The notes beneath the pieces are model-generated. The model was not told the DNA's origin, ran no database searches, and saw nothing but the letters and a program-made list of their open reading frames with translations. Shown piece after piece: positions 28,299 through 45,244 of a stretch of DNA of 64,000 nucleotides (position 1 is the first letter of the stretch; each line of letters starts with the position of its first letter). The translations under genes were made by a program, and so were the position numbers. This DNA is from Candidatus Poribacteria bacterium. Its GTDB lineage: Bacteria > Poribacteria > WGA-4E > WGA-3G. The stretch is from positions 5,943 through 69,942 of the forward strand of contig JAJDXV010000079.1 in NCBI GenBank assembly GCA_022823085.1. The letters are read 5' to 3'.

Positions 28299-28324
28299 GG
28301 AGCTGTCCTCCTAATTGTTGAATG

Positions 28325-29896
28325 TTAACAGGCAATACGTAGACTCGGATAATATGTCCGCGGACCACGCTGCCCATCAAAATCGTATTCGTACAGTTGA
28401 ATGGGTTGGGTGATATGCTGCAGTCGCAGTGTATGTCCAAGGATATAAGCCAATGCAACAGGACCTGCGAAAAAGAGGTGTATCGTCTGGCACGTCTCGG
28501 GAATTCTCTCGCTCAGTTGTGCCGCCAACTGATATCCGAACTGCCATGCATGAGTACCTCCAGATATAGCGTAGGGTCCGACACCATCTATAGGGGCAAC
28601 CCGAATCTGCGGCAATTCACTGTATCCTTGAGTCAATAGATAGGATCGCAACTGTTTCTGGATGTCATGCGTCACGGAAATTTCCAAGATGATTTCCTCG
28701 TCAATTTTTCCAACAGTTTCAAACCTCCACAAGTTCGTGTCAGTGTCGGGAGCACTTTGTTTCCAAAGCGTGTAGTCGCTTCTGTTCTTTTGTGTCGGTA
28801 TGATTTGAATCCGATGTTTTGGGCTCACCAAATGTCCCGCAAAGAACGCAATGCTGAGATGACAATCAAAGAAAAGATGGATAGGTTGCGGGACATCCAT
28901 CAATTTTTCGTTCAACATGAATGCCGAAATTTTTGCAGGTATTTCCTTTTTCCAATGGACATCCGTGATAGGAAAACGTTCATCAAACAACGGAAGTAAA
29001 TCCAGACGCGCGACTTGAAGATCGGTGGGGCGCCGTGCGAATTGTGCGAAACTTTGGATGGAAATTTCGCTATGTTTTGTGGCGGGTGAGACCATCAACT
29101 TTTCTTCGCGGATCATCTGGTTAAAAGCCGCTTTGTCAAACGAATTGCGTCCCTGTGCAAAAAGTTCCCAAGCGAGGCTGTCGTAAGGAATGTGAGTTAC
29201 TGTTGGATCAATGGGTTGTAGTCCTGCTAACTTCAGGCGGGGTTCCATTTCACTTGCGAGGTCTACAAGATTCTTTCCAAGCCTAAAACGAACGGTGTTC
29301 AAAAAGGCAAGGAGTTCTTCTGAGGATATAGAGAGATGTGCCGCGAGTTTCGAGCGCGCTTGACCCGCTGCGGATCTCGGTCCATTCTCATAAAAGGTTG
29401 AACGAATCGTTTCCTCATGCAAATGCTTGGCGAGTGCATCTTGATTCGCCCAATGCCAGTTGGAGAAGATGTACAACCGGAACGCGTCAGGATGAAGTTC
29501 TTGTGACAGTTTCACATACGCGTCGTACAGGCGTTTCAGCATTGAATTCTGATTGTTGATAAACTTTGGATCGATGAGGTTTTCATGAGTGAATGCACCG
29601 TGCTGCGTCATGTGGTACTTACACTGAAGGAATTCACAAACGACTTCCCGTTCCCCTGTCACTCGATCTTTTATGGGTTCACTATAGGAGACGACGACAT
29701 CATCGACAAAAGAGACGCGATCGCTTTCCAAGGTGACAGATTTGACATAATCATTGGTTCTGAGGTCAAGCAGCTTTAGCCAGAAGACTCTGGCTTGATA
29801 TTCATCCCCTTTTCTTCGTGCTGCGATCGCTTTTGCCATTATGAAAAGTGCTCCTTGTGTTATTGAGATATCGTAAACGCCTTTTGTTCCATTCAT
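28325..29896 (-). CDS. cap4: CBASS effector Cap4-like (DUF4297 PD-(D/E)xK nuclease + SAVED-like C-terminal half)
   Basis: N-terminal KGDEYQ and VDDVVV...EFLQCKY nuclease motifs. ~300-aa C-terminal sensor region. First gene of the operon. Confidence 0.75.
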   Translation of the reverse strand: MNGTKGVYDISITQGALFIMAKAIAARRKGDEYQARVFWLKLLDLRTNDYVKSVTLESDRVSFVDDVVVSYSEPIKDRVTGEREVVCEFLQCKYHMTQHGAFTHENLIDPKFINNQNSMLKRLYDAYVKLSQELHPDAFRLYIFSNWHWANQDALAKHLHEETIRSTFYENGPRSAAGQARSKLAAHLSISSEELLAFLNTVRFRLGKNLVDLASEMEPRLKLAGLQPIDPTVTHIPYDSLAWELFAQGRNSFDKAAFNQMIREEKLMVSPATKHSEISIQSFAQFARRPTDLQVARLDLLPLFDERFPITDVHWKKEIPAKISAFMLNEKLMDVPQPIHLFFDCHLSIAFFAGHLVSPKHRIQIIPTQKNRSDYTLWKQSAPDTDTNLWRFETVGKIDEEIILEISVTHDIQKQLRSYLLTQGYSELPQIRVAPIDGVGPYAISGGTHAWQFGYQLAAQLSERIPETCQTIHLFFAGPVALAYILGHTLRLQHITQPIQLYEYDFDGQRGPRTYYPSLRIAC

Positions 29897-29956
29897 AGAA
29901 AAGGTGGTGCATGAACATTATAACAACAATCCATATTGTTTATCTTAACGAACAAT

Positions 29957-29985
29957 ATTATACTATATAGAAAACACTTTGTCAA
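29957..29985 (-). promoter_or_regulatory. consensus sigma70 promoter for cap4 operon
   Basis: Minus strand reads TTGACA (29985-29980), 17-nt spacer, TATAAT (29962-29957). Confidence 0.55.
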
Positions 29986-29993
29986 GAAAAAGT

Positions 29994-30022
29994 TTGTAAT
30001 AATGAACAAATTCGTGTAAAAT
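29994..30022 (+). promoter_or_regulatory. promoter for capH-capP
   Basis: TTGTAA (29994-29999), 17-nt spacer, TAAAAT (30017-30022). Its -35 box lies 8 bp from the divergent -35 box. Confidence 0.5.
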
Positions 30023-30057
30023 AGTAAGGCAATTACCAAAATTAGGAGGCATTTCAC

Positions 30058-30462
30058 ATGAAACTGGGGCAAAAAATCAGGCAACTCCGCGAAGAAAAGG
30101 GGCTTTCACTTAACGGGCTGGCTGAAGAAGCAAGTATCTCTAAGGCTTATTTATCACAGCTTGAAAACGATGTGAGTAAGCAACCTTCGGCTGAGATATT
30201 GCTCAAAATTGCTTCGGCACTTGGTATAACTATTGCAGATCTCCTTGACCAGCCTGTACGCGTTTACGCGGAAGACTTTGAGGATGAAGATATTCCGAAT
30301 GCCTTACGTGAATTTATTGATGAACGAGGCGAAGCCCTTGATATTCAAAAAGAAGATGTCCGAATGCTGATGAATATTCGGTATAGAGGCAATCAACCCA
30401 AGGGCATTGAAGAATGGGAGCATATTCTGCAAACTATCCGGTATGTGATGAAGAAAGGATGA
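30058..30462 (+). CDS. capH: XRE-family HTH regulator (CapH-like)
   Basis: KIRQLREEKGLSLNGLAEEASISKAYLSQLEN HTH. AGGAGG SD. Divergent from the CBASS operon. Confidence 0.75.
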   Translation: MKLGQKIRQLREEKGLSLNGLAEEASISKAYLSQLENDVSKQPSAEILLKIASALGITIADLLDQPVRVYAEDFEDEDIPNALREFIDERGEALDIQKEDVRMLMNIRYRGNQPKGIEEWEHILQTIRYVMKKG

Positions 30463-31427
30463 AACAAAGACATCTTAAAGTTGGCAATAAGTATTATTCT
30501 CATAAATCAGTTATACGACTCATAGATCGTTATTCGGAAATCTCCCAAGATCCAGAGGAAATTATCCGAAGTTTAGTTCAGGACAAACTTAATGTAGCGA
30601 GACAGTCTAGGCATTTCCGATGGAATGGCCCACCTTTCAATCCCGAGGTTCTTGCGTCTATATTAGGGATCTGGTGTGAGGAATCTGTTGAATTAACACA
30701 TAGTGAGGATGCTGAACTCCACCCCGCAGAAAATGGGCGAGTGGTAATCAGATACAACCCGGATAAACCTAAAACACGGCAAAAATTCTCAATAGCTCAT
30801 GAAATTGTTCATACTTTTTTTCCTGGATATCAGGATGAGTGTCATGCGCGCCACCAAAGTGGTAAATTCGATCCTGAAAATGAAGTAGAGTTTTTGTGCG
30901 ATCTCGGAGCAAGTGAGATTGTTATGCCTACACCTGAATTTGATTCGGATGTTAAAAGTATGGGTGTTTCCCTAAAATCGCTGCAGAAACTTTCCAAACT
31001 GTATGAGGTCTCTTTAGAAGCGACCGCGATTCGTATGATTAAAACGGATTTCCATCCATGTGCTCTAATAGTGTTGGATTACAGCCACAAGCCTGCTGAA
31101 AAAGAGGAAATTGAAACATCAAAGTATCAGCAAAGTTTATTCCGTGAAGATCCTTGGGTTCCCCCTCCAATGCGTTTACGGGTGCAATATTTCGTTCGGG
31201 GCAGGCATTTTTCTACTTACATACCGAAGCATAAATCAATTGAGGAATCTTCGCCTCTCTATGAAGTGTCGGTAACTGGAAAACCATTTCAAGGAGATAC
31301 TGTCCTTAATTTAACAAAAACTCCCCTTAATACGTATGTTGAAGCAATGGCTTTACCTAAAACTCATAATACCGATCTGGATTCTCGTGTCATAGCCATT
31401 TTATTTCACACGCGTAAAAACTCATAA
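30459..31427 (+). CDS. capP: ImmA/IrrE-family zinc metallopeptidase (CapP-like)
   Basis: HEXXH motif IAHEIVHTFF. ATGA start/stop overlap with capH. Confidence 0.75.
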   Translation: MKQRHLKVGNKYYSHKSVIRLIDRYSEISQDPEEIIRSLVQDKLNVARQSRHFRWNGPPFNPEVLASILGIWCEESVELTHSEDAELHPAENGRVVIRYNPDKPKTRQKFSIAHEIVHTFFPGYQDECHARHQSGKFDPENEVEFLCDLGASEIVMPTPEFDSDVKSMGVSLKSLQKLSKLYEVSLEATAIRMIKTDFHPCALIVLDYSHKPAEKEEIETSKYQQSLFREDPWVPPPMRLRVQYFVRGRHFSTYIPKHKSIEESSPLYEVSVTGKPFQGDTVLNLTKTPLNTYVEAMALPKTHNTDLDSRVIAILFHTRKNS

Positions 31428-31502
31428 CCTATGAAGCAAGAAAGGAGGCGAAGCCGATGGCAGATATACAGATGATGGTAAAGAAAAAAATGATGTGTTC
31501 TG

Positions 31503-31523
31503 ACCGCCTATCGGGTAGGCGGT
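31503..31523. terminator. hairpin between the convergent capP and GmrSD genes
   Basis: ACCGCCTA-tcggg-TAGGCGGT, a perfect 8-bp stem. T-runs lie within ~12 nt on both strands. Confidence 0.45.
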
Positions 31524-31555
31524 TCCCGCAGCCTTTTTTATTCGACTTTGATGTT

Positions 31556-33298
31556 TTATGCGGTCGTCTCGTCATTTTCACCCATTGTTTTCTGGATTAC
31601 ACGAAATAATGCTTCTTTGCGGGCTTCAAAGAAACCCCAGAAATCATCGGCTCGCAGAGTGTCGGCAGAGATGAGGTGAGCAGCAAGTCTCTTATCCATT
31701 TTGGCATCGTCTATTCCAGCTTCTTTTTCTATCCTTTGCAAATACGCTGAAGGAGCGCGTCCGCCTATCTGTCGATTTGTGCGTGCTGAGATTACTGTTT
31801 TATTGATAATACTATTATAGTCATGGGGCGCGATTCCCTTACTCTCACACCAAGCTCTGGGAAATATGTGATGGATATCCACCCTGTCCTCAAAGAATAT
31901 CTTCTCATCAATAGGGTATCCAGTGAAAAAATCGCTTGCTCCTCTGTCGTGCATCATCAACGCGTGGATTCCCTTATACAAGGCACTACCACGAGTTCGG
32001 AGTTCAGATAAACGCTTCTTTTGGAAATCTGCTTCCTTGATTGTTGTAGGTTCCTTTTCACCTTTTTTTACCCAAGCAGTCACTTCAGAGAAATCCCTAG
32101 CTGCCTGAGTATCAGTAGAACCCGCATACATTTCACCAAGCACACCGCACCAATACCAACGCGCAATTTCCTGCTGAACTCCTTCTGTTTCACTCAGATG
32201 CCCTAAATCCATTAGAATCGCCGCCAACGGGACAAGTTGAGCTGAATAGGGAACATCTTTGGCATTAAATATTTTCTGTTTGTGCAAAAAGTGGGCTGCC
32301 TTCACAAACCCATCCTCGATTTGATCTGCCCACTCTTCATAACGCTTTCGATCCAACTCTAGAATTTCCTTACGCTTGCAACTTACCGGCGATTTTAGAT
32401 TTCGGGTGTCAATCAGTGTAAGTGCTTGTAGGAAATTGATACCATCAAGTTTTTCTAGTACCTTATGTTTTCTTAGACGTTTTCGTCTAGGTTCCCAATC
32501 ATCACGCAATCGGAAACCTTCTGCAGCGAGGGATGCTGTGAGAAGTTCAAATACAGTTAGCGTTACGCCCCCAGTGTTTACTTTCTCAAATACCAAGCAA
32601 ACGGCTTCTTTTGGAGCTCCACTTAATTCAATAACGGGGACATTGTATTGATTAAAGCATCGAATTATCTCAGCCTCAAATTTGAAGAGCAATCCAATTT
32701 TCTCCGCGTCCTGATTCCAATGGTTTATGTATCCTTGCCTCCAATCAGCAGAGTCGAAAATTTTGTGTATTGGAAAAATGTGATTATCGTACTGCTCGTT
32801 GGTTAATGAAAGGTCAATAGTTTTGGGTTTTCCATCAGCTGTCTGTATCTGTAAGCGACGATCATCTTTACAAATAATGACAGCCTCCTCGCGATCAGTT
32901 TCATTTCTGGTACACGCATCCATGTCGAAATAATAATATCGACGAATCTGCCTACCTCGAGCGTTCCTCGTAGAAACTCCGTTTTCCAACATTAAGGCTT
33001 GAAACAACGCTGTTAGTCGTTGTTGTCCATCAAGTATAAGGGTGTCAGGTTCCCTGGGAACATCCGCAGTATTCACTCCCTCAATGAGTCTTGTTTCAAA
33101 ATGCATATCTGTGTCTCCGGCTTTGAGGGTGAGCACAGAACCAATGGGAAATTCCCGTGATACGCTAGCGATAAGACTTCGGATACGGTCATCGTTCCAC
33201 ACCCAACCCCGCTGGAAGTCGGGTAGTTGTATCTTTCCGCCTTCTATTCCTCTGAGCAAGTCTTGGAGGAAAGGTCTGTCAATACTAAAAGTACTCAT
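31556..33298 (-). CDS. GmrSD/BrxU-type enzyme (DUF262 + DUF1524)
   Basis: N-terminal LPDFQRGWVW and LDGQQRLTAL. C-terminal His-Me finger DIHHIFP...NKTVISARTNRQIG. Confidence 0.85.
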   Translation of the reverse strand: MSTFSIDRPFLQDLLRGIEGGKIQLPDFQRGWVWNDDRIRSLIASVSREFPIGSVLTLKAGDTDMHFETRLIEGVNTADVPREPDTLILDGQQRLTALFQALMLENGVSTRNARGRQIRRYYYFDMDACTRNETDREEAVIICKDDRRLQIQTADGKPKTIDLSLTNEQYDNHIFPIHKIFDSADWRQGYINHWNQDAEKIGLLFKFEAEIIRCFNQYNVPVIELSGAPKEAVCLVFEKVNTGGVTLTVFELLTASLAAEGFRLRDDWEPRRKRLRKHKVLEKLDGINFLQALTLIDTRNLKSPVSCKRKEILELDRKRYEEWADQIEDGFVKAAHFLHKQKIFNAKDVPYSAQLVPLAAILMDLGHLSETEGVQQEIARWYWCGVLGEMYAGSTDTQAARDFSEVTAWVKKGEKEPTTIKEADFQKKRLSELRTRGSALYKGIHALMMHDRGASDFFTGYPIDEKIFFEDRVDIHHIFPRAWCESKGIAPHDYNSIINKTVISARTNRQIGGRAPSAYLQRIEKEAGIDDAKMDKRLAAHLISADTLRADDFWGFFEARKEALFRVIQKTMGENDETTA

Positions 33299-33507
33299 GT
33301 TTATTTCTCCAGTTAATAAAGTTTTACAACGGTGCTAAAACTTCCAGTTTCAATGATTCAGAATTCAGTCATCACAAGTCGGCTGGCGTAAATCTCTTTT
33401 CCAACGGTAGCAACTGCAACGAAAGTAACCGAAGCCACTTTCGTTAAACTCGTTAGAAAATATTATGGCTCATGTAAAAAGTATGTGCTATTTTTTCAAG
33501 TATACGT

Positions 33508-34455
33508 CTACAAATCAACAAGCCAATTAGCTAACGATGCGACCTGATCCGGATCTGTTAAGTTAGCTGCATTTTTCAGAGTGCCTTCCTCGAGCTGGTT
33601 CCAAATTTCTCCTGCCATGCTGTCAACGATAACTGCCCCAATGAAAAAGAGGTCTGGCGATAGATTCGCATTAGCAAAAGCGGTTTTGATACGTGTTAAG
33701 GCAGTTTGAGCAGTTTTCCAATGTTCATCTGCGCCTGCTGGATCTATGCCGCCCTTCAACTCTCCAAAGGCAATAAACTTCTCAGGTATTCTGTAAGTTG
33801 CAGGCTTCACTTCATCTGGTGGACAATGGAGTAGACACATGTCTATGTTTTTTCCCACAAGTGGAATTGTACGATTGTAAATCAGTGTTCGTGTTTTTTT
33901 CTCCTTTCTCCAACTGAGTGCTTTGAGACTCAATTCTATGTCCGCATCATCGCGCGTCCCGTCGATCCACGTGTTACTTGCAGTATTAAGCCACTGATAA
34001 GTCGTCTCGGTTAACGTTAGTGCAGAAATAATAGCACGATTAACTTTTCTTTCAGCCAGTTTACCTGCAATGTTTCGCATTGAACCACCTAATGAATCTC
34101 CGCGTGTTAACAAAAATCGATAAACTAACTCCTCAACAAAGTTTGTTCCCGCAGGTTCTAAAAATCTTTCTATGAAATTTTGGATCGCAACTATATGATC
34201 CTTTTCTGCTGTTTGCTTTGTCGCTTTTTCCGAAAATCCTGCAGCAGTAAGTAATGCAACTCGTATTTCTTCAATTCCGAGTAGTTCATTAGGGTGATTA
34301 GCACGCATTGCTGCAACTTTCAAGGCACGTGCCTGTTCTATAAATGGAGTTGCCTGACGACTCCGTTCCAAAGCTAAGGCGACAAAACCGGCGCGAATTT
34401 CCTCAGGGGTAGTGATAAGGTCAGCACTGGCGGATAGATGTCGGAGATATGCCAT
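33508..34455 (-). CDS. putative type II restriction endonuclease
   Basis: Start ATG shares 1 nt with the MTase stop (TAATG). No family recognised by eye. GELKGG...DEHWK may be the catalytic region. Confidence 0.5.
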   Translation of the reverse strand: MAYLRHLSASADLITTPEEIRAGFVALALERSRQATPFIEQARALKVAAMRANHPNELLGIEEIRVALLTAAGFSEKATKQTAEKDHIVAIQNFIERFLEPAGTNFVEELVYRFLLTRGDSLGGSMRNIAGKLAERKVNRAIISALTLTETTYQWLNTASNTWIDGTRDDADIELSLKALSWRKEKKTRTLIYNRTIPLVGKNIDMCLLHCPPDEVKPATYRIPEKFIAFGELKGGIDPAGADEHWKTAQTALTRIKTAFANANLSPDLFFIGAVIVDSMAGEIWNQLEEGTLKNAANLTDPDQVASLANWLVDL

Positions 34456-35885
34456 TATCTTTTTCTCCAAACATATACGCATTTCCGAAGGGGTACGCGT
34501 CCATACGCTCCCATCTGCTGACTGCTGTTTCCTTTCTTGCTGGGGACAACAAGGATATTTTCCACCTCAAAATCGAGAGACCGCGCAATGTCGGATAAAA
34601 TCGTGTCAACGGAAATGCTCACACCTGCATAGCGGACATTATCGTTTACCATGAAAAGACGGGCATTTGGTTTTAGGACGCGGGCGCATTCACCAATAAC
34701 GCACGCCATTTCAGAGAAATATCCGCGAACCATCCTTGGGATGCCACTGTTGTTTAAATTGCCGGATGCCTTTTCGTGTTCAAGGTAAGCGTTTATTGTT
34801 TGTAGGAGTTTTTGTCGGTTGGTGGCTTCTATGAACGGAGCCCACTGTGGACAAATTTTCAGGAGATCTTTTCCTCGATTTTCCACAGTACAACTGAGCA
34901 TTTCTTGCCGTAAATTAGAAACTTCCGTCTGCGTCAATCCCAACATCGCAAGTTCAAGCGCGTAAGTCCGCGTGTAATCATAGCGGTTGCAATAAGGGGG
35001 CGAAGTCACAATCGTCCCATAAGAGGCTGTTTCAAGGTTCGGAAGAACCTCAAGACATGAACCTTTGAATAATCTAATATCCTTCGCTGTCTGCTTAACA
35101 GGAAAAAGTGTGAGAGGGGTCTCAGCATTGCGGATATCCGATAAAATTTCTTTGAGCTTAGCAGTTATGGCAGCATCAAAAGGAAGGATTTCACCTTTGT
35201 TGAAAGCCTTTGTCCCAGGTCTTCTCTTACCCGATCGAGCATCCCAACGCAAATACTGTCCGTCTTTTCGAGTGTAACTAATGCTTTCTAACACGCAAAG
35301 GAGTGCAAGACGCAAGATCGCCTGAATTTTCTCGTTTTCTTCTCGGAGGGCAGCTCTGTAACGTTCAATTGCTGCGCTCGTTTCTGGCGGATAGGCGTTC
35401 TCTGTGATTCGGATTGTACTAAACGGTAACCGCTCCGGGAATTCCTTCCAAGGTAGAGACGCTATCCACCGTTCAAGGGTGACAATGTCATCCGATGTCA
35501 GTTCCATCTCTGACAAAAGACGAGCACGAATAATCTCTTGTCCGATAGGCAACAATTCTATACCATCGGCAGGGATTCCTTGCGAACTCGCAGCAAACAG
35601 GGTTGTGCCTATCCCAGCAAACGGATCAAGCACCTTTCCTGATATTTGTCCGTCGTAACTACTGAGGAAATATTCAACAAGGCTTGCTGAGAAGGCTTCT
35701 TTGTATTTATACCAATTATAGGCAGGTTTGTCCTTATTTCCTTGAAAACTGACGATTTTGCGAGATAAAAATGGGGTTACCGAAAATTGGGCTTTAAAAT
35801 CCGCAGTGAGTTCCGCATCAAGCGCGGCGATTTTTTTGCGCAGTTCGGCAGTTTCTGATTGGGTCTTACTGTTTTCAGGTGTCAT
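34455..35885 (-). CDS. N4-cytosine/N6-adenine DNA methyltransferase
   Basis: Motif I LDPFAGIGTT precedes motif IV IVTSPPYCNRYDY. Confidence 0.85.
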   Translation of the reverse strand: MTPENSKTQSETAELRKKIAALDAELTADFKAQFSVTPFLSRKIVSFQGNKDKPAYNWYKYKEAFSASLVEYFLSSYDGQISGKVLDPFAGIGTTLFAASSQGIPADGIELLPIGQEIIRARLLSEMELTSDDIVTLERWIASLPWKEFPERLPFSTIRITENAYPPETSAAIERYRAALREENEKIQAILRLALLCVLESISYTRKDGQYLRWDARSGKRRPGTKAFNKGEILPFDAAITAKLKEILSDIRNAETPLTLFPVKQTAKDIRLFKGSCLEVLPNLETASYGTIVTSPPYCNRYDYTRTYALELAMLGLTQTEVSNLRQEMLSCTVENRGKDLLKICPQWAPFIEATNRQKLLQTINAYLEHEKASGNLNNSGIPRMVRGYFSEMACVIGECARVLKPNARLFMVNDNVRYAGVSISVDTILSDIARSLDFEVENILVVPSKKGNSSQQMGAYGRVPLRKCVYVWRKR

Positions 35886-35893
35886 AAACGTCC

Positions 35894-36661
35894 TTACGCA
35901 TCGTCGTCGGGGATCTCTGGCCAGTTGTGTTCCGGTGAATACCCTAAATCATCTGCTGCCTGTTGCCACGAAAAACGGGAATCCGTGCGTCCAGCGACAG
36001 CATTATACGCACCGTAACTTACCGTCTCTGCCTCAATCGCACAAGCAACACACTGCGCAACATCCCGCGGATCGACATAAACAAACCAAGGATCTGTTAC
36101 AACATCAGGTGCCGCCGGACCGGGATTTTGTCCGTCTCCTGCGATGACCCCAGGACGGACATGAATCACGGCCAACCCGCGTGCCTGATGATACGCTGCA
36201 CCGATCTGTTCACCGAGATATTTCGCCAGCGAATAGTAGAGGTCCCCCGGACCGAACTGAAAATCGTCGTTGACCTCGTAAGGCAGTTTTGCACTCGGTG
36301 CAGGATGGCACGCCGAGATACTCGAAATATTCACCAATCTCCGAACACCTTGCTCGACGCAGGCTTCTGCCACATTCCACGTGCCTTTCACCATCACATC
36401 AGCAAACAATGAGGCAGGTTTATCGGAGCGTCCGCGCACCAAGGCAACGAGATGCACAACCGCATCCTGATCCGTACACGCTGCCGCAATCTCAGACGCG
36501 TTTGTCACATCCGCCTTGATAAAGGTCGTGTTTTCAGGTATATGTGCCGGTTCAACGATGTCGGTGAGCGTCAACTCGTACCTGCCGTGCAGCTGATCAA
36601 TGATAAATCGTGCTAAATATCCACTCGCCCCGGTAATCAAGATTTTTTCAAGGGTTGCCAT
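35894..36661 (-). CDS. NAD-dependent epimerase/dehydratase family protein
   Basis: ILITGASGYLARFI Rossmann motif; YxxxK-type YSLAK. Confidence 0.75.
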   Translation of the reverse strand: MATLEKILITGASGYLARFIIDQLHGRYELTLTDIVEPAHIPENTTFIKADVTNASEIAAACTDQDAVVHLVALVRGRSDKPASLFADVMVKGTWNVAEACVEQGVRRLVNISSISACHPAPSAKLPYEVNDDFQFGPGDLYYSLAKYLGEQIGAAYHQARGLAVIHVRPGVIAGDGQNPGPAAPDVVTDPWFVYVDPRDVAQCVACAIEAETVSYGAYNAVAGRTDSRFSWQQAADDLGYSPEHNWPEIPDDDA

Positions 36662-36682: not shown

Positions 36683-37021
36683 TTAGATGAATGGTGGGTT
36701 CTCATAGAGTGCCACGTTGTAACCGACAAAAAAGGCATCCCCGCTCTGGACTGTCGGTGCGCGCAGGCTACCACTACGACCGAGAACCGCTTTTAGAATC
36801 GGTTCCTGTGTCTCCTCAGACGGCACGAAAGTTTCAACGCGCTTCCCTTTCGCGACAACGATCTGCTTCGCAGTGCCCATTAAATCCCATACCGCTTCGG
36901 CATCCATCCGTTCTTTTCGGGCATCCGTACGGTTTTCCGCTTCTACATCGTGTGTGTCAAGAAACTCTTGCACTTTTTTGCATGAGTTTCAGCTGTTCCG
37001 AAAATAGATCCAATCTACCAT
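36683..37021 (-). CDS. ArsC/Spx/YffB-family thioredoxin-fold protein, candidate selenoprotein (TGA 36991-36989 = Sec)
   Basis: AGGAGA, 9 nt, ATG 37021. Reads MVDWIYFRNS-TGA-NSCKKVQEFLDTHDV... in frame with track ORF 36683..36973. Restores the family N-terminus (compare YffB LYGIKNCDTCKKARRWL). Confidence 0.7.
36961..36990 (-). promoter_or_regulatory. candidate SECIS-like hairpin
   Basis: GAAACUC-A-UGCA[AAAAAG]UGCA-A-GAGUUUC: 7 bp, an A.A mismatch, then 4 bp. The stem begins at the G of the UGA. Confidence 0.45.
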
Positions 37022-37033
37022 TTTTTAAATTCT

Positions 37034-37187
37034 CCTGACGGTTCGGTAAAGTGGATTTCGGATTTCAAGGGTCTTCCATTTATCCGATTTCCACTTCGTT
37101 CCAATTTTTAATTTTCCTTGCGGTTCGGTGAAGCGGATTGGAGGCTTCAAGTGCTTTCCCGTATATTCGCTTTCCACTTCGTTCCAA
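37034..37187. repeat. two ~72-nt direct repeats with internal dyad symmetry
   Basis: Units 37034-37104 and 37116-37187 share CGGTTCGGT(A/G)AAG(T/C)GGATT...TTCAAG...TTTCCACTTCGTTCCAA. They lie between the oxidoreductase stop and the selenoprotein-candidate RBS. Confidence 0.7.
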
Positions 37188-37220: not shown

Positions 37221-38228
37221 TTATAGGTCCTTCACGTTAATAAATCTGCCAGTGTTGCGACTTTGGACCGCAGCATCAATCAACGCAAGCGTCTCGACTG
37301 CGTCAGCGAAAGGCGACCGAATGAGGGACCTGTCGCCTGTTTCAATGGCACACAGCCACGCGCCGGTTTTATCCAACCCTAAACTGTTCTCACCAACCAC
37401 CGGTTCGGTGACAATTCCGCCGTTAAGGTAACCGTGAATGGTACTGTCTGCCATATTTGCGTGGAGCCGCAGATGCGGTCCGAGGACTTCGACTTCAAAA
37501 CAAAATCTTTCCGTCCCACAATGGTTCGTATGTGTCCCGAAAACCCCGTTATCTAATTGATACGTCATCTGGATGGCGTTTTCTGCATCGAATTCTGTCC
37601 GCTCCAACGCCATGTTTTTCGTCGCCAGTGCATGCGCCTGCACCGGTTTCGGGTTCCCCATAACAAACCGCGCGCAATCCAATACATGCACCGCTTGTTC
37701 CGGCAGCGGACCCCCACTAATCTCAGACTTCAGAAACCACAACGGCATTCTGAATGTGAGGTAATAGTCAATCGTACAGACCGTCCGAACAAGATGTATC
37801 GTCTCTGTAGCGATTAACGTTTGCAACCGTTCATAGAGCGGATGGTAACGGAGTTGGAATCCGACAGCAGCGATAACACCCGCCTCCTCAATACAGGCGA
37901 GGCATCTCCTGCCCTCAGCCATATTTAGAGCCGGCGGTTTTTCGATCAGCATCGGAATACCGCGATCGCACGCCATCTGAATCGGTTCAAACCGGACAGG
38001 TGGTGGTGTCGTGATTACCACGCCATCCATCTCTACATCAAAAAACGCATCTAATTCCGTAGTCGCGAGTGCCGCGTCGGCATCTGTCGCAAGTTCACGT
38101 GCCGCGTCAAGCCGCACATCATGTACCGCAACGACGCGGCCACCGTAGTCGGCTACCGCTTTATGGTGATGACCACCCATACGACCCGCACCGATAATGC
38201 CTATCGCCAACGATTTTTCAGAGTTCAT
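37221..38228 (-). CDS. Gfo/Idh/MocA-family oxidoreductase
   Basis: IGIIGAGRMGGHH Rossmann motif; EKPPA motif. Likely start ATG 38228 (ATGA overlap with the upstream stop). Confidence 0.85.
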   Translation of the reverse strand: MNSEKSLAIGIIGAGRMGGHHHKAVADYGGRVVAVHDVRLDAARELATDADAALATTELDAFFDVEMDGVVITTPPPVRFEPIQMACDRGIPMLIEKPPALNMAEGRRCLACIEEAGVIAAVGFQLRYHPLYERLQTLIATETIHLVRTVCTIDYYLTFRMPLWFLKSEISGGPLPEQAVHVLDCARFVMGNPKPVQAHALATKNMALERTEFDAENAIQMTYQLDNGVFGTHTNHCGTERFCFEVEVLGPHLRLHANMADSTIHGYLNGGIVTEPVVGENSLGLDKTGAWLCAIETGDRSLIRSPFADAVETLALIDAAVQSRNTGRFINVKDL

Positions 38229-38986
38229 TGTGTTTTGAGGGTTCCCCACGTTATGGTGAGTTTGTCTTTCGGTTCAACAGCCATCGGATCCCGTCCGCCG
38301 TAAATCTCGAGTTCGTCAATCCGCGTACCCGCGTTCGTTCGGATATGGATGCGAAGCCATCGAGCCTCCACATCATCAAAAGTGAATTCGGTCGTCTCAC
38401 TGACGGGGTCCCCTTTGTGCGTGTAGACTTTCTCCCATGTATTCGCCTCGGAATCCGCGTCAGCCTTCGTTGTTGCGACAAGGACATCAAAATCCACTGC
38501 CATCCTATCAAGAAAACCTTGCGAATGATCGCTACCGAAAATAATACGGTTCACATTCGCGACATCGCCGATATCAACCTGTGCCCAACCCGGTATTGTT
38601 CCGATAATCCAACTTCGGCAGTTGTTATAGAAACCGTCGTTGAGATATTCGGTGCAGTGCCGTTGCGGACACCAGCCCGCTATAGAAGAAGATGCCTCCG
38701 CTTTCGCATCTTTCAAAAGTGCTAAATTCGGTTCATCGTCTCGGACTGTCGGCACGAATTCGGGGCCCGGTTTACCGCCAGCCTCACACGCGTCTGTCGC
38801 AGCCTTGATGTCCTGTTCCTTGAATTCATAACGTCCAAACTTCTCAGGTCCCTGATCCTCGTCGTGGACTGCGAAGACAGTAGGCATGCCGATTAGCATC
38901 GCTATCATCACAAACCACCCATAATTTATCCATCTCATCGCACGTTCCTCCATTTTCGAGGTTGTACTTGGTGTTAATATTAGCAC
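38225..38986 (-). CDS. secreted F5/8 type C (discoidin) domain protein
   Basis: Signal-like WFVMIAMLIGMPTVFA. Discoidin pattern WAQVDIGDVANVNRIIF...ARWLRIHIRTNAG. The start may be an internal Met (38953 or 38938). Confidence 0.75.
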   Translation of the reverse strand: MLILTPSTTSKMEERAMRWINYGWFVMIAMLIGMPTVFAVHDEDQGPEKFGRYEFKEQDIKAATDACEAGGKPGPEFVPTVRDDEPNLALLKDAKAEASSSIAGWCPQRHCTEYLNDGFYNNCRSWIIGTIPGWAQVDIGDVANVNRIIFGSDHSQGFLDRMAVDFDVLVATTKADADSEANTWEKVYTHKGDPVSETTEFTFDDVEARWLRIHIRTNAGTRIDELEIYGGRDPMAVEPKDKLTITWGTLKTQ

Positions 38987-41162: not shown

Positions 41163-41405
41163 ATGACTGAGATAGGTGTTCACAAAGCAAAGACGCATTT
41201 GTCCAGACTTCTCAAGCGTGTTGAAAATGGGGAAAGTTTTTCAATAACTAACAGAGGAAGAGTGGTAGCGGTGATGGTTCCACCCCATGATATTTCGCAA
41301 GTCAAGACTAATGATGCTTATGGTCAACTTATTGCCTTGCGGGAAAAATCCCCTATTGGAACGTTAGATGAGGTGATAAATTGGAAGAACAAAGACCGCA
41401 AATGA
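41163..41405 (+). CDS. Phd/YefM-family antitoxin
   Basis: IGVHKAKTHLSRLLKRVENGESFSITNRGRVVAVMVP. Confidence 0.8.
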   Translation: MTEIGVHKAKTHLSRLLKRVENGESFSITNRGRVVAVMVPPHDISQVKTNDAYGQLIALREKSPIGTLDEVINWKNKDRK

Positions 41406-41830
41406 TTGTGGTTGATTGCTCAGTTTTAATAGCAGGTCTTCTACCCGATGAAGTTGAAGAACAAGCACAGTTAATTTTGGAAGATTTGCATCGCGGTATA
41501 ACTTTAGCGGTTGTCCCATCCCTGTTTTATCAGGAAGTGAGTAATGTGTTACTCATGGCTTACCGGCGAACACGGATAAATCAAGATACTTTGTTCCAAT
41601 ATCTTGATATAATAGCGATGCTGCCAGTTAAGATTGATACTGCTGCTGCGACACACGGAAATACAATGAAGGCTGTGTGTGAATTAGCGGAAGAGCATGG
41701 GTTGACAACTTATGATGCCAGTTATCTGGAACTCGCCGTGCGTCTTGACTTACCACTGGCAACTTTAGATACAGATTTGAACAAGGCCGCAGCTAAAATG
41801 CACGTTGCCTATCAAATGAGAAGAAATTAA
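41402..41830 (+). CDS. vapC: PIN-domain toxin VapC
   Basis: MIVVDCSVLIAG..., TYDASYLELA, LATLD acidic residues. ATGA overlap with the antitoxin. Confidence 0.8.
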   Translation: MIVVDCSVLIAGLLPDEVEEQAQLILEDLHRGITLAVVPSLFYQEVSNVLLMAYRRTRINQDTLFQYLDIIAMLPVKIDTAAATHGNTMKAVCELAEEHGLTTYDASYLELAVRLDLPLATLDTDLNKAAAKMHVAYQMRRN

Positions 41831-41968: not shown

Positions 41969-44839
41969 ATGAGACAGACTGTCGCCGTTAAAGGTGCACG
42001 TGAAAACAATCTAAAAGACATTGAACTTGAAATCCCGCGAGACCAACTCGTCGTCGTTACCGGTATCAGCGGCTCCGGCAAATCTTCATTAGCGTTTGAC
42101 ACTGTCTATGCCGAAGGACAGCGCAGATTCTTGGAATCGATGTCCACTTACGCCAAACGCTTTATCACACAACTCAAAAAACCGGATGTCGATTTCATTG
42201 ACGGGCTATCACCGGTTGTCTCTATCGAACAGAAAACGGTCACGATGAACCCACGGTCTACTGTTGGAACGATGACCGATCTGCAGGACTATCTCCGCAT
42301 GCTGTTCGCAACCATCGGTGTCGCCCACTGTCCTTACTGTGGCGTTGAGATTCCTATCCGTTCACACCATCAGATACTCGAACGGATGCTCGCGTTACCA
42401 GAAGATACCGAGGTCGAGATTCATGCCCCCGTCTTCAAAATCTACGGTGAAGATTATGACTACCTCTTTGACGACATCCGTACAAAAGGGTGCAGACACG
42501 TCAAAATCGACGGCATCGAACACGACATCAGCGAGGAAATCGAACTCGACCCAGAGGAGGAATACGACCTCCAAGTCATTGTTGACAAATTCTACGTGAA
42601 AAAAGATATTGATAAACAGGTACTCGCCTCTCTTGAACACGCCATGCTCGTCGGTGAAGGCTTCATGCGTTTCGATGTCGAGTTCCCTGAAGATGCTGAG
42701 CCGGACGCTATACAGCAGCTGGAAGGGTTCGGATGTCCGAAACACGGCGTTATCATGGCTGAACTCGGACCGCACCACTTCACTTTTAACGAACCGAGCG
42801 GTGCATGTGTTACCTGCTCAGGACTCGGCACCTATTTACAGGTACATCCAAACCTCCTCGTCCCTGATAAGACCCGAAGTATCGCCGGTGGCGCGTTCGT
42901 CCATCAAGCCTTCAACTACGATCCCGATAGATGGGACGGCAGGACAATGTACAGTCTCGCCGCACACTACGGATTTGACTTGGACACACCTTTTACGGAT
43001 TTACCAGAAAACATTGTTGACATCCTCTATCACGGCACACACGGCGAAGAATTTCCGATCTGTCAACCCGAAGGCGCGCGCCCCGTCGAAAAACGCCACC
43101 TCGGTCGAAAAATCCGGTTCGACGGGATTGTTACCCGAATCGATAGACACTATCGCCGCTACCGAAAACAGGGAGAAGCACACTCCGGCATGGAAGAATA
43201 TCTCCGAAAGGTGATGGTAGAACGCACCTGTCCTGATTGCAACGGCGCAAAGCTCAAACGGCAACGACTCCTTGTTACTATCGACGGTCAGACCATCCAC
43301 GAAGTCGGCGAACTACATTTCGAGGAATTAAGAGACTTCTTGTTAGCCATCACAGGTATTCCCGAAAAACAGCGGGAAGCCGGCAACCGCGTCATCAACG
43401 AACTGGTAACCCGGATTAGTCTCCTACTCGGTATCGGACTCGATTACCTCAACCTCAACCGTCGTTCCGCAACGCTCTCCGGCGGCGAATCGCAACGCAT
43501 CCGGCTCTCCACACAGATCGGTTCCGGATTGATGGGCATGCTCTATGTCCTTGATGAACCGAGTATCGGTCTGCACCCGAAGGATAACCAGAAGATGATA
43601 GAGACCTTACGAAAATTAAGGGACATCGGCAACACCGTCATCGTCGTTGAACACGACGAAAGCACCATTCGTGCTGCCGATCACATCATCGAACTCGGAC
43701 CGGGACCCGGTGTCCACGGCGGCGAAGTCGTCATACAAGGTGAACTTGGAACGATACTCGACTGTCCCGAATCTCTGACAGGTCTCTATTTGAGCGGCAA
43801 CCGAGAGATCCCACTGCCCAAGCAACGCCGCAGCCTGAACGGTAAATTCATCAGTATTACGGGGGCCAGAGAAAACAACCTCAACGCCATTGACGTGGAT
43901 ATTCCGCTCGGTGTATTTATCTGCGTTACCGGTGCTTCCGGTTCCGGTAAGAGTACCCTCGTCAACGAAATCCTCTACAAGCGATTACATTCTATCTATC
44001 ACGACAGCCGCACGCTCTACGGTGACCATGATGAACTGGAAGGACACCAGCACGTCGACGATGTGATTAGTATCGACCAATCGCCGATCGGACGTTCCTC
44101 ACGTTCCAATCCCGCTACCTACATCAAATTCTACGATAATATCCGTAAACTTTTCGCCAGCGCACCGCTCTCAATTTCAAGAGGCTACACCGCCTCACGC
44201 TTCAGTTTCAACGTCAAAGGTGGACGGTGTGAAGAGTGCCACGGTGATGGCACAATTACCACGCAGCTCCACTTTATGCCGGACGTTGAAGTCGTCTGTC
44301 CGACTTGTAAAGGCGCGCGCTACAACGAAGATACGCTTGATGTTACCTACAACGGCAAGAATATCTCCGAGATCCTTAATATGTCCATCGAGGAAGGTGT
44401 TGCGTTCTTCGCTGATCAACGGTTGATTAACCATAAATTGAGCGTCTTAAACCAACTCGGTATGGGGTATCTCCAGATCGGGCATCCCGCCACGATCCTC
44501 TCTGGTGGCGAAGCGCAACGCGTGAAGTTAGCAAGCGAACTCGGTAAACTCAAGCGCAGCAAGCATAACCTCTATATCTTAGATGAACCGACGACAGGGC
44601 TCCACATCGCCGACGTACAGAAACTCCTCGACAGTCTCAATCGCCTCGTCGATACTGGGCATACCGTGCTTGTGATTGAACACCATCTCGATGTCATCAA
44701 AACCGCCGATTATGTCATCGATCTCGGTCCCGAAGGTGGACACAAAGGCGGAGAAGTCTTAGCGTGCGGAACACCTGAAGAGGTGGCAGCCATCGATACC
44801 TCCTTTACTGGACAGTTCCTGAAGGAATATCTTACCTGA
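41969..44839 (+). CDS. uvrA: excinuclease ABC subunit A
   Basis: [47 protein letters not shown]; zinc modules CPDCNGAKL and CPTCKGARY. Confidence 0.97.
44801..44839 (+). repeat. uvrA 3' end, copy 1 of a 39-nt imperfect direct repeat
   Basis: Encodes [12 protein letters not shown]. The 18-nt core TGAAGGAATATCTTACCT is repeated at 45242-45259. Confidence 0.85.
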
Positions 44840-44896
44840 CAGCAAAAGGCTATCAAGTTAGAGAATTTCTCAGACAATACAACCAGGAGACGCAAA

Positions 44897-45244
44897 ATGA
44901 ATGAAGATGTGTTTGATGGATTCAATGTGAACATATTTCTTGACGAGGATGGCGATTACTTAGCCCACTTTGTTGAAATGCCGAATGTATCAGCGTTTTC
45001 AGATACACCAGAAGGGGCGTTGAAAGAACTCGCGCTCGCTTGGAAAGGTGTTAAGGAAAGTTATCAAAAACATCAGGAACCCATTCCGAAAGCACCTACT
45101 CGGCAAGAGCACGAGGCACCCGTCAATGTACCTATTGATCCGCAGCTTTACCGCGCCTTGACACACGAAGCCTTGAAATCAGGAATGAGCCTTCACGCGT
45201 TTGTAGCACAGAAATTGAAGTCTCTTACACCGGGTGGTTCTTGA
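44897..45244 (+). CDS. HicB-like antitoxin (no hicA seen)
   Basis: FLDEDGDYLAHFVEMPNVSAFSDTPEGALKEL (UPF0150/HicB fold) plus a C-terminal RHH-like LYRALTHEALKSGMSLHAFV. Confidence 0.7.
   Translation: MNEDVFDGFNVNIFLDEDGDYLAHFVEMPNVSAFSDTPEGALKELALAWKGVKESYQKHQEPIPKAPTRQEHEAPVNVPIDPQLYRALTHEALKSGMSLHAFVAQKLKSLTPGGS

What the first reader, a model, noticed from the sequence alone, without database searches (positions are those of the whole stretch)
36683..37040. Hidden selenoprotein candidate: in-frame TGA restores the CxxC N-terminus of an ArsC/Spx-family protein as UxxC, with a hairpin at the UGA
The ORF track gives only a 96-aa ORF (GTG 36973). It matches the C-terminal two-thirds of ArsC/Spx/YffB thioredoxin-fold proteins but lacks the beta1-CxxC segment. 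The minus strand upstream, in the same frame, reads AGGAGA, 9 nt, then ATG(37021) GTA GAT TGG ATC TAT TTT CGG AAC AGC TGA(36991-36989) AAC TCA TGC AAA AAA GTG. That translates as MVDWIYFRNS-U-NSCKKVQEFLD, which lines up with the family N-terminus (E. coli YffB LYGIKNCDTCKKARRWL). The TGA therefore sits exactly where the catalytic first Cys belongs. A hairpin, GAAACUC-A-UGCA[AAAAAG]UGCA-A-GAGUUUC (36990-36961), begins inside the UGA codon, which is where bacterial SECIS elements lie. Caveat: the apical loop is close to the UGA (about 13 nt) and lacks the usual G near its 5' side, so the geometry is not textbook.
Basis: partly seen in the sequence, partly recalled or inferred. Interest (0 to 1): 0.72.

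Follow-up and report, generated by a model that had tools for sequence, protein, structure and literature searches.

The report
Miscalled ArsC-like selenoprotein gene
This small redox-protein gene has an in-frame TGA that almost certainly encodes selenocysteine; it belongs to an already catalogued selenoprotein family that gene callers routinely cut short, so it is real but not new.

Summary
On the minus strand, ATG 37021 opens a 112-codon frame. It is interrupted only by TGA 36991-36989, which gives U11-x-x-C14.

With U written as C, the protein matches NCBIfam NF041106 "ArsC family (seleno)protein" end to end (121 bits, cutoff 85). Reviews list this family as a UxxC selenoprotein family first found in ocean metagenomes.

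The TGA and the ten codons before it are conserved in 25 Poribacteria species genomes, one Planctomycetota genome and 115 metagenomic genes. Forty homologue clusters carry Cys at exactly that position.

One correction concerns the SECIS. An overlapping downstream hairpin (36973-36954, GUU triloop 23 nt after the UGA) fits the published bacterial SECIS geometry. It covaries across the family and is favoured at synonymous sites. Nine of ten Cys-type genes lack it.

No Sec machinery lies in the window. Published COG tables show SelA, SelB and SelD in three other Poribacteria genomes.

Verdict: a real, miscalled selenoprotein gene of a known family, of low novelty.

The parts
36683..37021 (-). Full coding sequence of the ArsC-like selenoprotein: 112 codons plus the TAA stop. 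It reads MVDWIYFRNS-U-NSCKKV...PPFI.
   Evidence: Translation. With U written as C it matches NF041106 over residues 2-106 against profile positions 1-107 of 107, at 121.4 bits with a cutoff of 85.
37031..37036 (-). Shine-Dalgarno-like AGGAGA, 9 nt upstream of the ATG.
   Evidence: Sequence. Relatives have AAGGAA or GGAGGA at the same place. The role is inferred.
37019..37021 (-). True start codon ATG. An in-frame TAA at 37027-37025 excludes any start further upstream.
   Evidence: The ATG is conserved in all 25 Poribacteria loci. Pairwise identity jumps from 0.49 just upstream to 0.90 in codons 1-10.
36989..36991 (-). In-frame TGA, codon 11, read as selenocysteine (U of the UxxC motif).
   Evidence: TGA is present in 26 of 26 species-genome loci and in 115 confirmed metagenomic genes. 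Cys occupies this column in 40 representative clusters. In the structure model the residue sits just before helix alpha1.
36980..36982 (-). TGC, Cys14, the resolving Cys of UxxC.
   Evidence: Invariant in family alignments A4 and A6. It aligns with Spx Cys13.
36954..36973 (-). Proposed SECIS element, hairpin B: GUG-CAAGA[GUU]UCUUG-A-CAC. It has 8 bp, a bulged A at 36957 and a triloop at 36965-36963 that starts 23 nt after the UGA.
   Evidence: Covariation score 0.332 against 0.182 for shuffles, reached by 0 of 500. The apex lies here in 135 of 138 family sequences, 134 of them with G in the first two loop positions. Synonymous-shuffle median z is -1.5 against -0.08 in a control region. Nine of 10 Cys-type genes lack it.
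36961..36990 (-).
   Evidence: It is 95% paired in Poribacteria but 62% elsewhere. Family-wide covariation is at shuffle level. Its spacing is 10 nt and it has no G early in the loop.
35894..36661 (-). Downstream SDR/NAD-dependent epimerase gene, 21 nt after the stop. It is probably co-transcribed.
   Evidence: Pfam Epimerase and 3Beta_HSD. The arrangement is conserved in Poribacteria relatives. No terminator-like site lies between the genes.
37221..38249 (-). Upstream GFO/IDH/MocA oxidoreductase gene, a conserved neighbour in Poribacteria.

Best explanation
The gene at 37021-36683 (minus strand) encodes a 112-residue thioredoxin-fold protein of the curated family NF041106, "ArsC family (seleno)protein". 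Its active site is U11-x-x-C14.

Inferred recoding mechanism, by analogy with the E. coli SelB/SECIS system:
1. Translation starts at ATG 37021.
2. As the ribosome reaches UGA 36991-36989, it has unwound the 5' arm of the stable hairpin A.
3. This frees the sequence to form the small hairpin B (36973-36954). Hairpin B has 8 bp with a bulged A and a GUU triloop 23 nt after the UGA.
4. Hairpin B acts as the bacterial SECIS. It recruits SelB-GTP-Sec-tRNA(Sec), and selenocysteine is inserted instead of termination.

Inferred protein function: a small redox protein in which the selenol of U11, at the N-terminus of helix alpha1, attacks a substrate and is resolved by Cys14 as a selenenylsulfide. The substrate is unknown.

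Shown here: the sequence anatomy, family membership, conservation of the TGA and its upstream codons, Cys/Sec correspondence, the structural constraint on hairpin B, and the fold.

Inferred, not shown: actual Sec insertion, the SelB-hairpin B interaction, the ribosome-driven switch from A to B, and the chemistry.
For: Family: NF041106 matches at 121.4 bits against a cutoff of 85, full length. Ten sampled Sec-type and Cys-type relatives score 112-150 bits on the same model.

TGA: it is present with conserved upstream codons in 26 of 26 species genomes. Of 118 pattern matches in metagenomes, 115 were confirmed as family members using only residues outside the searched pattern.

Coding constraint upstream of the TGA in Poribacteria:
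- Pairwise identity is 0.36-0.49 before the ATG, 0.90 in codons 1-10 and 0.84 in codons 12-40.
- Seven of 9 third-codon positions vary, against 3 of 9 for positions 1 and 2.

Cys correspondence: 40 representative clusters have Cys at the TGA column.

TGA still ends 5 of 36 long ORFs in the window, so there is no genome-wide reassignment.

Hairpin B:
- Covariation is 0.332 against 0.182 +/- 0.008, reached by 0 of 500 shuffles; 111 cells are changed on both sides against 40.
- It meets the published loop, stem, G and spacing rules in 134-135 of 138 sequences.
- Synonymous shuffling raises the mean MFE from -9.15 to -5.78 kcal/mol, with no effect in a control region.
- All five core pairs form in 115 of 138 Sec-type genes against 1 of 10 Cys-type genes, Fisher p = 3e-6.
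- Hairpin B is the MFE structure once the first 12-15 nt are held unpaired.

Fold: the AF2 model has pLDDT 95.9, with residue 11 immediately before alpha1. Spx is the top structural match and the top profile match, E = 1e-9.

Phylum-level Sec machinery: SelA, SelB and SelD COGs are present in three Poribacteria genomes (PMC5649159 Table S4). Sec-type hydrogenases have been reported from Poribacteria MAGs (PMC13582414).
Against: - No selA, selB, selC or selD was found in the 64-kb window or in any DNA held, so the trait is not shown for this genome.
- There is no experimental evidence of Se incorporation for this family. The reviews describe it as bioinformatically predicted.
- In the window, hairpin B has -7.0 kcal/mol, just short of the -7.5 cutoff of the consensus model. 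It is less stable than the competing hairpin A at -13.4.
- The covariation and shuffle statistics use related sequences and are not independent samples.
- The Cys-type control has only 10 genes.
- Rfam has no model that recognises the element.
Confidence: 0.82

Rival explanations
1. The UGA is recoded through the same SECIS-type hairpin, but the inserted residue is Cys, or a Cys/Sec mixture. This would occur through a tRNA(ReC)-like UCA-anticodon tRNA or mis-acylated tRNA(Sec). The product would then be a CxxC protein rather than a selenoprotein.
For: PMC13582414 describes tRNA(ReC), which decodes UGA as Cys in the presence of a SECIS and occurs in some Sec-using genomes. The sequence data here cannot distinguish Sec from Cys insertion.
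Against: SelA and SelD, which make Sec, are present in the Poribacteria genomes tabulated. Keeping a costly UGA plus SECIS across more than 140 genes when TGC is one mutation away argues for a Sec-specific benefit. The curated family and the literature treat it as Sec.
Confidence: 0.06
2. In Poribacteria the reader's hairpin A (36990-36961) is the working SECIS, a non-canonical element with a short spacing, and hairpin B is secondary.
For: Hairpin A is the MFE fold at -13.4 kcal/mol. It is 95% paired in 22 distinct Poribacteria sequences, with an A-U to C-G double change in four of them. Shuffling the synonymous codons of its 5' arm weakens it, median z = -1.45. The review notes that some bSECIS elements do not fit the consensus.
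Against: Its loop starts 10 nt after the UGA, where 16-37 nt is expected, and it has no G in the first two loop positions. Family-wide it is at shuffle level, 0.132 against 0.124. It is broken in L016-L019 and L022 within Poribacteria. Its 5' arm would lie inside the ribosome when the UGA is in the A site (established footprint knowledge; inference). Hairpin B is intact in 22 of 22 Poribacteria sequences.
Confidence: 0.07
3. The TGA is a genuine stop. The real product would be the 96-residue protein starting at GTG 36973, and the conserved upstream codons would be a 10-codon leader peptide or a regulatory element.
For: Gene callers produce this model. Nearly all database entries are 96 residues long. 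No Sec machinery was seen in the window.
Against: A 96-residue product lacks beta1 and the whole CxxC motif of a thioredoxin fold. The curated HMM aligns from residue 2. Cys-type homologues are colinear across the TGA. The GTG is not conserved as a start outside Poribacteria, while the TGA and upstream codons are. The GTG sits in the stem of hairpin B.
Confidence: 0.04
4. The gene is a pseudogene, or the TGA is a sequencing or assembly error.
For: None beyond the presence of an internal stop.
Against: The same TGA occurs in 26 independent species genomes and in more than 115 metagenomic contigs from many environments. The flanking codons show a purifying-selection pattern on both sides.
Confidence: 0.01

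Closest known systems
NCBIfam NF041106, 'ArsC family (seleno)protein'. This is the 'Arsenate reductase-like protein, UxxC' of the prokaryotic selenoproteome lists, and probably 'Arsenate reductase 2' of the GOS survey (PMC2398784, PMC13188914).
   Same: Full-length HMM match above the curated cutoff. The UxxC motif, the size of about 110 residues, an in-frame UGA with a downstream stem-loop, and the coexistence of Sec and Cys forms all agree. NCBI already names close Poribacteria orthologues this way.
   Different: Nothing essential differs. The Poribacteria clade has a bulged A in the SECIS stem and an extra competing hairpin over the UGA. It also has conserved synteny with a GFO/IDH/MocA oxidoreductase and an SDR epimerase, which other members lack. 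The identity of NF041106 with the GOS 'Arsenate reductase 2' group is my inference from the shared UxxC motif and ArsC/Spx assignment; it was not tested.
Spx (Bacillus subtilis redox-sensing, RNA-polymerase-binding regulator; PDB 1Z3E, 3IHQ, 6GHB)
   Same: It is the best profile match (E = 1e-9) and the best structural match (E = 5e-5, TM about 0.55). The U/C-x-x-C motif aligns on Spx Cys10-x-x-Cys13.
   Different: The window protein scores 23 bits on the Spx/MgsR model against a cutoff of 75. It is about 20 residues shorter at the C-terminus. The RMSD is 6-7 A, and the model has a beta-hairpin at residues 53-65. Sec replaces Cys. No evidence for RNA polymerase binding was sought or found.
E. 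coli fdhF-type bacterial SECIS and the bSECIS consensus model (Zhang and Gladyshev, as summarised in PMC13188914)
   Same: The stem-loop lies inside the coding region just after the UGA. It has a small apical loop with G followed by U, a spacing within 16-37 nt, and a single-base bulge in the stem. As I recall for fdhF (from memory, not checked here), sequence next to the UGA is also base-paired in a lower structure that the ribosome must open.
   Different: The element is very short: 8 bp with a 3-nt loop, at -7.0 kcal/mol in the window. The pairing over the UGA belongs to a separate, mutually exclusive hairpin rather than a coaxial lower stem. SelB binding is untested.
R773-type ArsC arsenate reductase and YffB
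   Same: They share the superfamily and the position of the nucleophilic Cys near the N-terminus of alpha1. YffB (1RW1) is hit by the family profile at E = 4e-6.
   Different: No NCBIfam arsenate-reductase model matches the window protein at E <= 1. Arsenate reductase structures are only weak structural matches, E = 0.14-1. There are no ars genes nearby. 'Arsenate reductase' is therefore a family label, not a supported function.

Membership tests
NCBIfam NF041106 ArsC family (seleno)protein | Whole-protein HMM score at or above the curated cutoff of 85 bits, over the full profile. | tested here: met
   121.4 bits; residues 2-106 against profile positions 1-107 of 107.
NCBIfam NF041106 ArsC family (seleno)protein | An N-terminal U/C-x-x-C motif, with Sec (TGA) and Cys forms aligned at the same column. 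| tested here: met
   Forty representative clusters have Cys at that column, 12 read W (TGA translated as Trp), and about 26 start right after it. Both Sec-type and Cys-type samples hit the model at 112-150 bits.
Bacterial selenoprotein gene (SelB/SECIS-dependent UGA recoding) | In-frame UGA conserved in orthologues, with coding constraint on both sides. | tested here: met
   TGA in 26 of 26 species genomes and 115 metagenomic genes. Pairwise identity is 0.90 in codons 1-10 against 0.36-0.49 upstream of the ATG.
Bacterial selenoprotein gene (SelB/SECIS-dependent UGA recoding) | bSECIS geometry: apical loop of 3-9 nt, upper stem of 4-16 bp, G in the first two loop positions, and 16-37 nt between the UGA and the loop. 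| tested here: met
Hairpin B has loop GUU, 8 bp and a spacing of 23 nt.
Bacterial selenoprotein gene (SelB/SECIS-dependent UGA recoding) | SECIS free energy of -7.5 kcal/mol or lower. | tested here: inconclusive
   The window's hairpin B has -7.0 kcal/mol, marginally short. 67% of family members pass.
Bacterial selenoprotein gene (SelB/SECIS-dependent UGA recoding) | The RNA structure is under selection and is specific to the Sec form. | tested here: met
   Covariation exceeds all 500 shuffles. Synonymous-shuffle median z is -1.5 against -0.08 in a control region. All five core pairs form in 115 of 138 Sec-type genes against 1 of 10 Cys-type genes.
Bacterial selenoprotein gene (SelB/SECIS-dependent UGA recoding) | selA, selB, selC (tRNA-Sec) and selD are present in the same genome. 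| not testable with these tools
   Only 64 kb of a 71.8-kb scaffold is available. It has no tRNA and no SelA, SelB or SelD hit with memory-typed E. coli queries. At phylum level, published COG tables show SelA/SelB/SelD counts of 2/1/1, 2/1/1 and 4/1/2 in three Poribacteria genomes.
Bacterial selenoprotein gene (SelB/SECIS-dependent UGA recoding) | Selenium is demonstrably incorporated at the UGA position. | not testable with these tools
   This needs 75Se labelling or mass spectrometry. The literature describes the family as predicted only.
Pfam PF03960 ArsC family | Score at or above the gathering threshold of 24 bits. | tested here: not met
   The window protein scores 13.1 bits, E = 0.12. 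However, 25 of 42 family members match at E < 0.01, best 3e-11. The family profile also hits ArsC-related and YffB structures. Superfamily kinship is therefore supported even though this sequence alone is below threshold.
Spx/MgsR regulators (TIGR01617) | Score at or above the cutoff of 75 bits. | tested here: not met
   23.2 bits; other family members score 27-40 bits.
Arsenate reductase (functional ArsC, R773 type) | A match to an arsenate-reductase equivalog model, or an ars operon context. | tested here: not met
   No such NCBIfam hit at E <= 1. Neighbours are a GFO/IDH/MocA oxidoreductase and an SDR epimerase, with no ars genes. Arsenate reductase structures are only weak matches.
Thioredoxin-fold CxxC oxidoreductases (general) | The redox motif sits in the loop between beta1 and alpha1, at the N-terminus of alpha1. 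| tested here: met
   The AF2 model of the 68%-identical P0064 has pLDDT 95.9, with beta1 at residues 4-7, residue 11 in the loop, and alpha1 at residues 12-23.

The most novel reading that the evidence does not exclude
In the Poribacteria clade, the stable hairpin A (which covers the UGA and the 5' arm of the SECIS) and the weaker SECIS hairpin B may form a co-translational switch. The SECIS would be masked until the ribosome unwinds A on arriving at the UGA. B would then be presented to SelB only at that moment, which could tune the competition between recoding and termination. The evidence does not exclude this. A and B are mutually exclusive. A is maintained in most Poribacteria with one compensatory change. 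B becomes the MFE structure when the first 12-15 nt are blocked.
Probability: 0.12. Interest if true: 0.45.

Novelty: already known. Interest (0 to 1): 0.2.

Why it matters
The main value is correct annotation.

- Of the 120 best database homologues, all but two are stored as truncated proteins, nearly all of them 96 residues long, that have lost beta1 and the whole active site. The two full-length entries have Trp written at the Sec position.
- Functional and selenoproteome surveys of sponge symbionts will therefore miss this gene.
- The gene adds a concrete selenoprotein to Poribacteria. This supports earlier hints that sponge symbionts retain Sec machinery and so depend on selenium.
- The family-wide SECIS description could serve as a seed for an RNA model, since Rfam currently finds nothing here. 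The description comprises a GUU-type triloop about 23 nt after the UGA, two pairing registers, covariation at synonymous sites, and absence from Cys forms.

None of this changes current understanding of Sec decoding.

Tried and rejected
- Rfam at gathering threshold on the whole window, and at E <= 10 on 36880-37080, gave only noise. No bacterial SECIS model applies.
- The first metagenome scan from a protein alignment failed, because the tool back-translated the 'W' written at the Sec position into TGG. I replaced it with a hand-made DNA pattern that fixes TGA.
P0064 was used instead.
- RNAalifold on all 138 sequences gave no consensus structure. The cause was two pairing registers (loop GUU and loop GUUU), resolved by per-sequence folding and explicit pair counts.
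- Hairpin A as the family-wide SECIS is rejected.
- Conserved neighbours outside Poribacteria: none recur in more than 5-6 of 116 loci, so context gives no functional clue.
- tblastn with memory-typed E. coli SelA, SelB and SelD against all 975 kb of held DNA found nothing.
- No supplementary files are held for PMC13582414.
- The screen for other Sec-TGA candidates in the window gave 10 weak hits. The only UxxC one (49820, minus strand) translates to antisense-like noise.
- The search for Cys-type paralogues in held DNA found none. P0199 as a query returned mostly truncated relatives.
- The promoter and terminator scan around the gene showed nothing above shuffle expectation.
Full report
**Observation.**
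- AGGAGA lies at 37036-37031, followed by a 9-nt spacer and ATG at 37021-37019.
- Ten codons follow (MVDWIYFRNS), then TGA at 36991-36989, then NSC, with TGC at 36982-36980.
- The frame continues into the 96-codon ORF that the ORF list starts at GTG 36973, and ends at TAA 36685-36683.
- An in-frame TAA two codons before the ATG means no other start is possible upstream of the TGA.
- The hairpin at 36990-36961 is real. As a lone fold it is only mildly unusual: z = -1.8, and 9 of 200 shuffles fold as well.

**Family.**
- With U written as C, Pfam gives only sub-threshold hits: Glutaredoxin at E = 0.022 and ArsC at E = 0.12.
- NCBIfam NF041106, "ArsC_rel_Se_1, ArsC family (seleno)protein", matches residues 2-106 to profile positions 1-107 of 107. 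The score is 121.4 bits against a curated cutoff of 85.
- The best 120 homologues are almost all 96-residue proteins, many from Candidatus Poribacteria. A few are already named "ArsC family (seleno)protein" by NCBI.
- Two full-length entries have W at the TGA position, so their contigs were presumably translated with TGA as Trp.
- The GOS survey lists "Arsenate reductase 2, cd03032, UxxC" with 42 Sec and 238 Cys sequences (PMC2398784).
- This is therefore a catalogued family.

**Conservation of the TGA.**
- A scan of species genomes returned 25 Poribacteria loci and one Planctomycetota locus at 39% identity. All have TGA at codon 11, the same start, and the ten upstream codons. Differences are mostly synonymous.
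- Within Poribacteria, pairwise identity is 0.36 at -60..-21 and 0.49 at -20..-1. It is 0.90 in codons 1-10 and 0.84 in codons 12-40. Seven of nine third positions vary, against three of nine at positions 1 and 2.
Of the 118 usable matches, 115 were confirmed as family members by phmmer using only residues 25-112, which lie outside the pattern.
- Ten sampled sequences all pass NF041106.
- In an exhaustive search of 50%-identity representatives, 40 clusters have Cys at the TGA column (CxxC). Twelve have W, and about 26 begin immediately after it.
- A profile of the Cys forms finds 4,595 proteins at E <= 1e-8.
- TGA ends 5 of 36 long ORFs in the window, so the codon is not reassigned genome-wide.

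**Which hairpin is the SECIS?** Two mutually exclusive hairpins follow the UGA.
- Hairpin B spans 36973-36954 and reads GUG-CAAGA[GUU]UCUUG-A-CAC, at -7.0 kcal/mol.

The published bSECIS consensus has four requirements (PMC13188914):
- a loop of 3-9 nt;
- a stem of 4-16 bp;
- G in the first two loop positions, usually followed by G or U;
- 16-37 nt between the UGA and the loop, with MFE of -7.5 kcal/mol or lower.

Hairpin B has a GUU loop, 8 bp and a 23-nt spacing. It misses only the energy cutoff, by 0.5 kcal/mol. Hairpin A has a 10-nt spacing and no early G in its loop.

The comparison used an ungapped, codon-registered alignment of 138 distinct Sec-type sequences (A3).
- Hairpin B scores 0.332 for covariation against 0.182 +/- 0.008 in shuffles, reached by 0 of 500. 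It has 111 cells changed on both sides against 40. Exchanges such as AU 96 / CG 27 / GC 4 involve the third position of the Leu codon.
- Hairpin A scores 0.132 against 0.124.
- The signal for B at slide +1 reflects a second register (loop GUUU) used by the "SKFL" subfamily.
- Per-sequence folding puts the apex at the same place in 135 of 138 sequences. Of these, 134 have G in the first two loop positions, and spacing is 19-24 nt.

**Controls for hairpin B.**
- Resampling synonymous codons, with usage matched for GC3, raises the mean MFE of the region from -9.15 to -5.78 kcal/mol (median z = -1.5). A control region 45 nt downstream shows no effect, z = -0.08.
- Ten distinct Cys-type genes with comparable local peptides were fetched. 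Their mean MFE is -3.7 kcal/mol. Only one forms all five core pairs, against 115 of 138 Sec-type genes; Fisher p = 3e-6.
- The exception, L161, looks like a recent TGA-to-TGC conversion.
- These statistics use related sequences, so the p-values are indicative only.

**Status of hairpin A.**
- It is 95% paired in the 22 distinct Poribacteria sequences, with one A-U to C-G exchange. It is broken in L016-L019 and L022, and only 62% paired elsewhere.
- Shuffling only the synonymous codons of its 5' arm gives median z = -1.45.
- It may be lineage-specific or partly a by-product of the peptide sequence.
- With the first 12-15 nt held unpaired, as expected when a ribosome sits on the UGA, hairpin B becomes the MFE fold.

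**Sec machinery.**
- The window has no tRNA. No SelA, SelB or SelD similarity was found in any held DNA.
- The window is part of a 71.8-kb metagenomic scaffold, so the rest of the genome cannot be examined.
- Published COG tables give SelA/SelB/SelD counts of 2/1/1 for Ca. Poribacteria WGA-3G, 2/1/1 for bin70 and 4/1/2 for bin44. The paper assigns both bins to Ca. Poribacteria (PMC5649159).
- Sec-type [NiFeSe] hydrogenases have been reported from Poribacteria MAGs (PMC13582414).
- This is phylum-level support, not proof for this genome.

**Protein.**
- A family profile hits Spx (E = 1e-9), the putative ArsC 2M46 (5e-8), 2KOK and YffB 1RW1 (4e-6). The U/C-x-x-C motif aligns on Spx Cys10-x-x-Cys13.
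- An AF2 model of P0064, which is 68% identical to the window protein, is confident: pLDDT 95.9 and pTM 0.88. It has beta1 at residues 4-7, residue 11 in the loop, and alpha1 at residues 12-23.
- Foldseek ranks Spx first (E = 5e-5, TM about 0.55). ArsC-related proteins, YffB and glutaredoxins follow.
- The protein fails the Spx/MgsR cutoff and matches no arsenate-reductase model. I treat "arsenate reductase" as a label only.
- The most likely chemistry, inferred from the motif and fold, is a selenol/thiol redox couple that forms a selenenylsulfide.

**Context.**
- In Poribacteria the gene is flanked by a GFO/IDH/MocA oxidoreductase upstream and an SDR epimerase 21 nt downstream.
- No neighbour recurs among 116 non-Poribacteria loci.
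- No promoter-like or terminator-like signal stands out.

**Verdict.**
- The SECIS should be reassigned to 36973-36954.
- The finding belongs to a known, curated family, so novelty and interest are low.
- The remaining uncertainty is experimental: Sec against Cys insertion, and the presence of sel genes in this genome.

Noticed in passing
window 37023-37187 (minus-strand leader between the GFO/IDH/MocA gene and the ATG): The leader contains a tandem duplication of a unit of about 82 nt (37023-37104 and 37105-37187, 75-86% identical). Each copy carries the ACCGAACCG...AGGA motif that sits at about -26 from the ATG in the closest Poribacteria relatives. Most relatives have one proximal copy, and L003 has a similar extra copy.
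   Followed up: partly
window about 26680-35885: A defence island lies directly downstream of the SDR gene, annotated by Pfam from the matching scaffold L150. It comprises an N6_N4 methyltransferase (34455-35885), a BsoBI-type endonuclease (about 33508-34455), GmrSD (about 31556-33298), a Peptidase_M78 plus HTH pair (about 30058-31427), and a CBASS-like set: SAVED (about 28325-29839), SMODS (about 27153-28298) and a Cap2/ThiF protein.
   Followed up: no
window about 41163-41830 and 41969-45244 (+ strand): A PhdYeFM/PIN toxin-antitoxin pair is followed by a 956-residue UvrA-like gene ending in TGA at 44837-44839. The next called ORF (115 residues, 44897-45244, no Pfam hit) is in the same reading frame, 19 codons after that TGA. 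This may be coincidence.
   Followed up: no
L161:298-636: This Cys-type family member (TGC at the Sec position, 'SKFLEA' subfamily) still carries the full SECIS-like hairpin (GC.UCCAA[GUUU]UUGGA.GC) seen in its Sec-type relatives. That suggests a recent Sec-to-Cys conversion.
   Followed up: partly
database homologues P0001-P0120; P0064, P0070: All but two of the 120 best homologues are stored as truncated proteins, nearly all of them 96 residues long, starting at the GTG inside the SECIS stem. The two full-length ones have Trp at the Sec position, presumably from calls made with a TGA=Trp code. This is a systematic annotation error for the family.
   Followed up: yes
alignment A3, columns 25-43; e.g. 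L038, L133: The family keeps the SECIS apex at one place using two different pairing registers. One has loop GUU with i+j constant. In the 'SKFL' subfamily the register is shifted by one, with loop GUUU or AGUUUC. The position of the structure is conserved rather than the sequence.
   Followed up: partly
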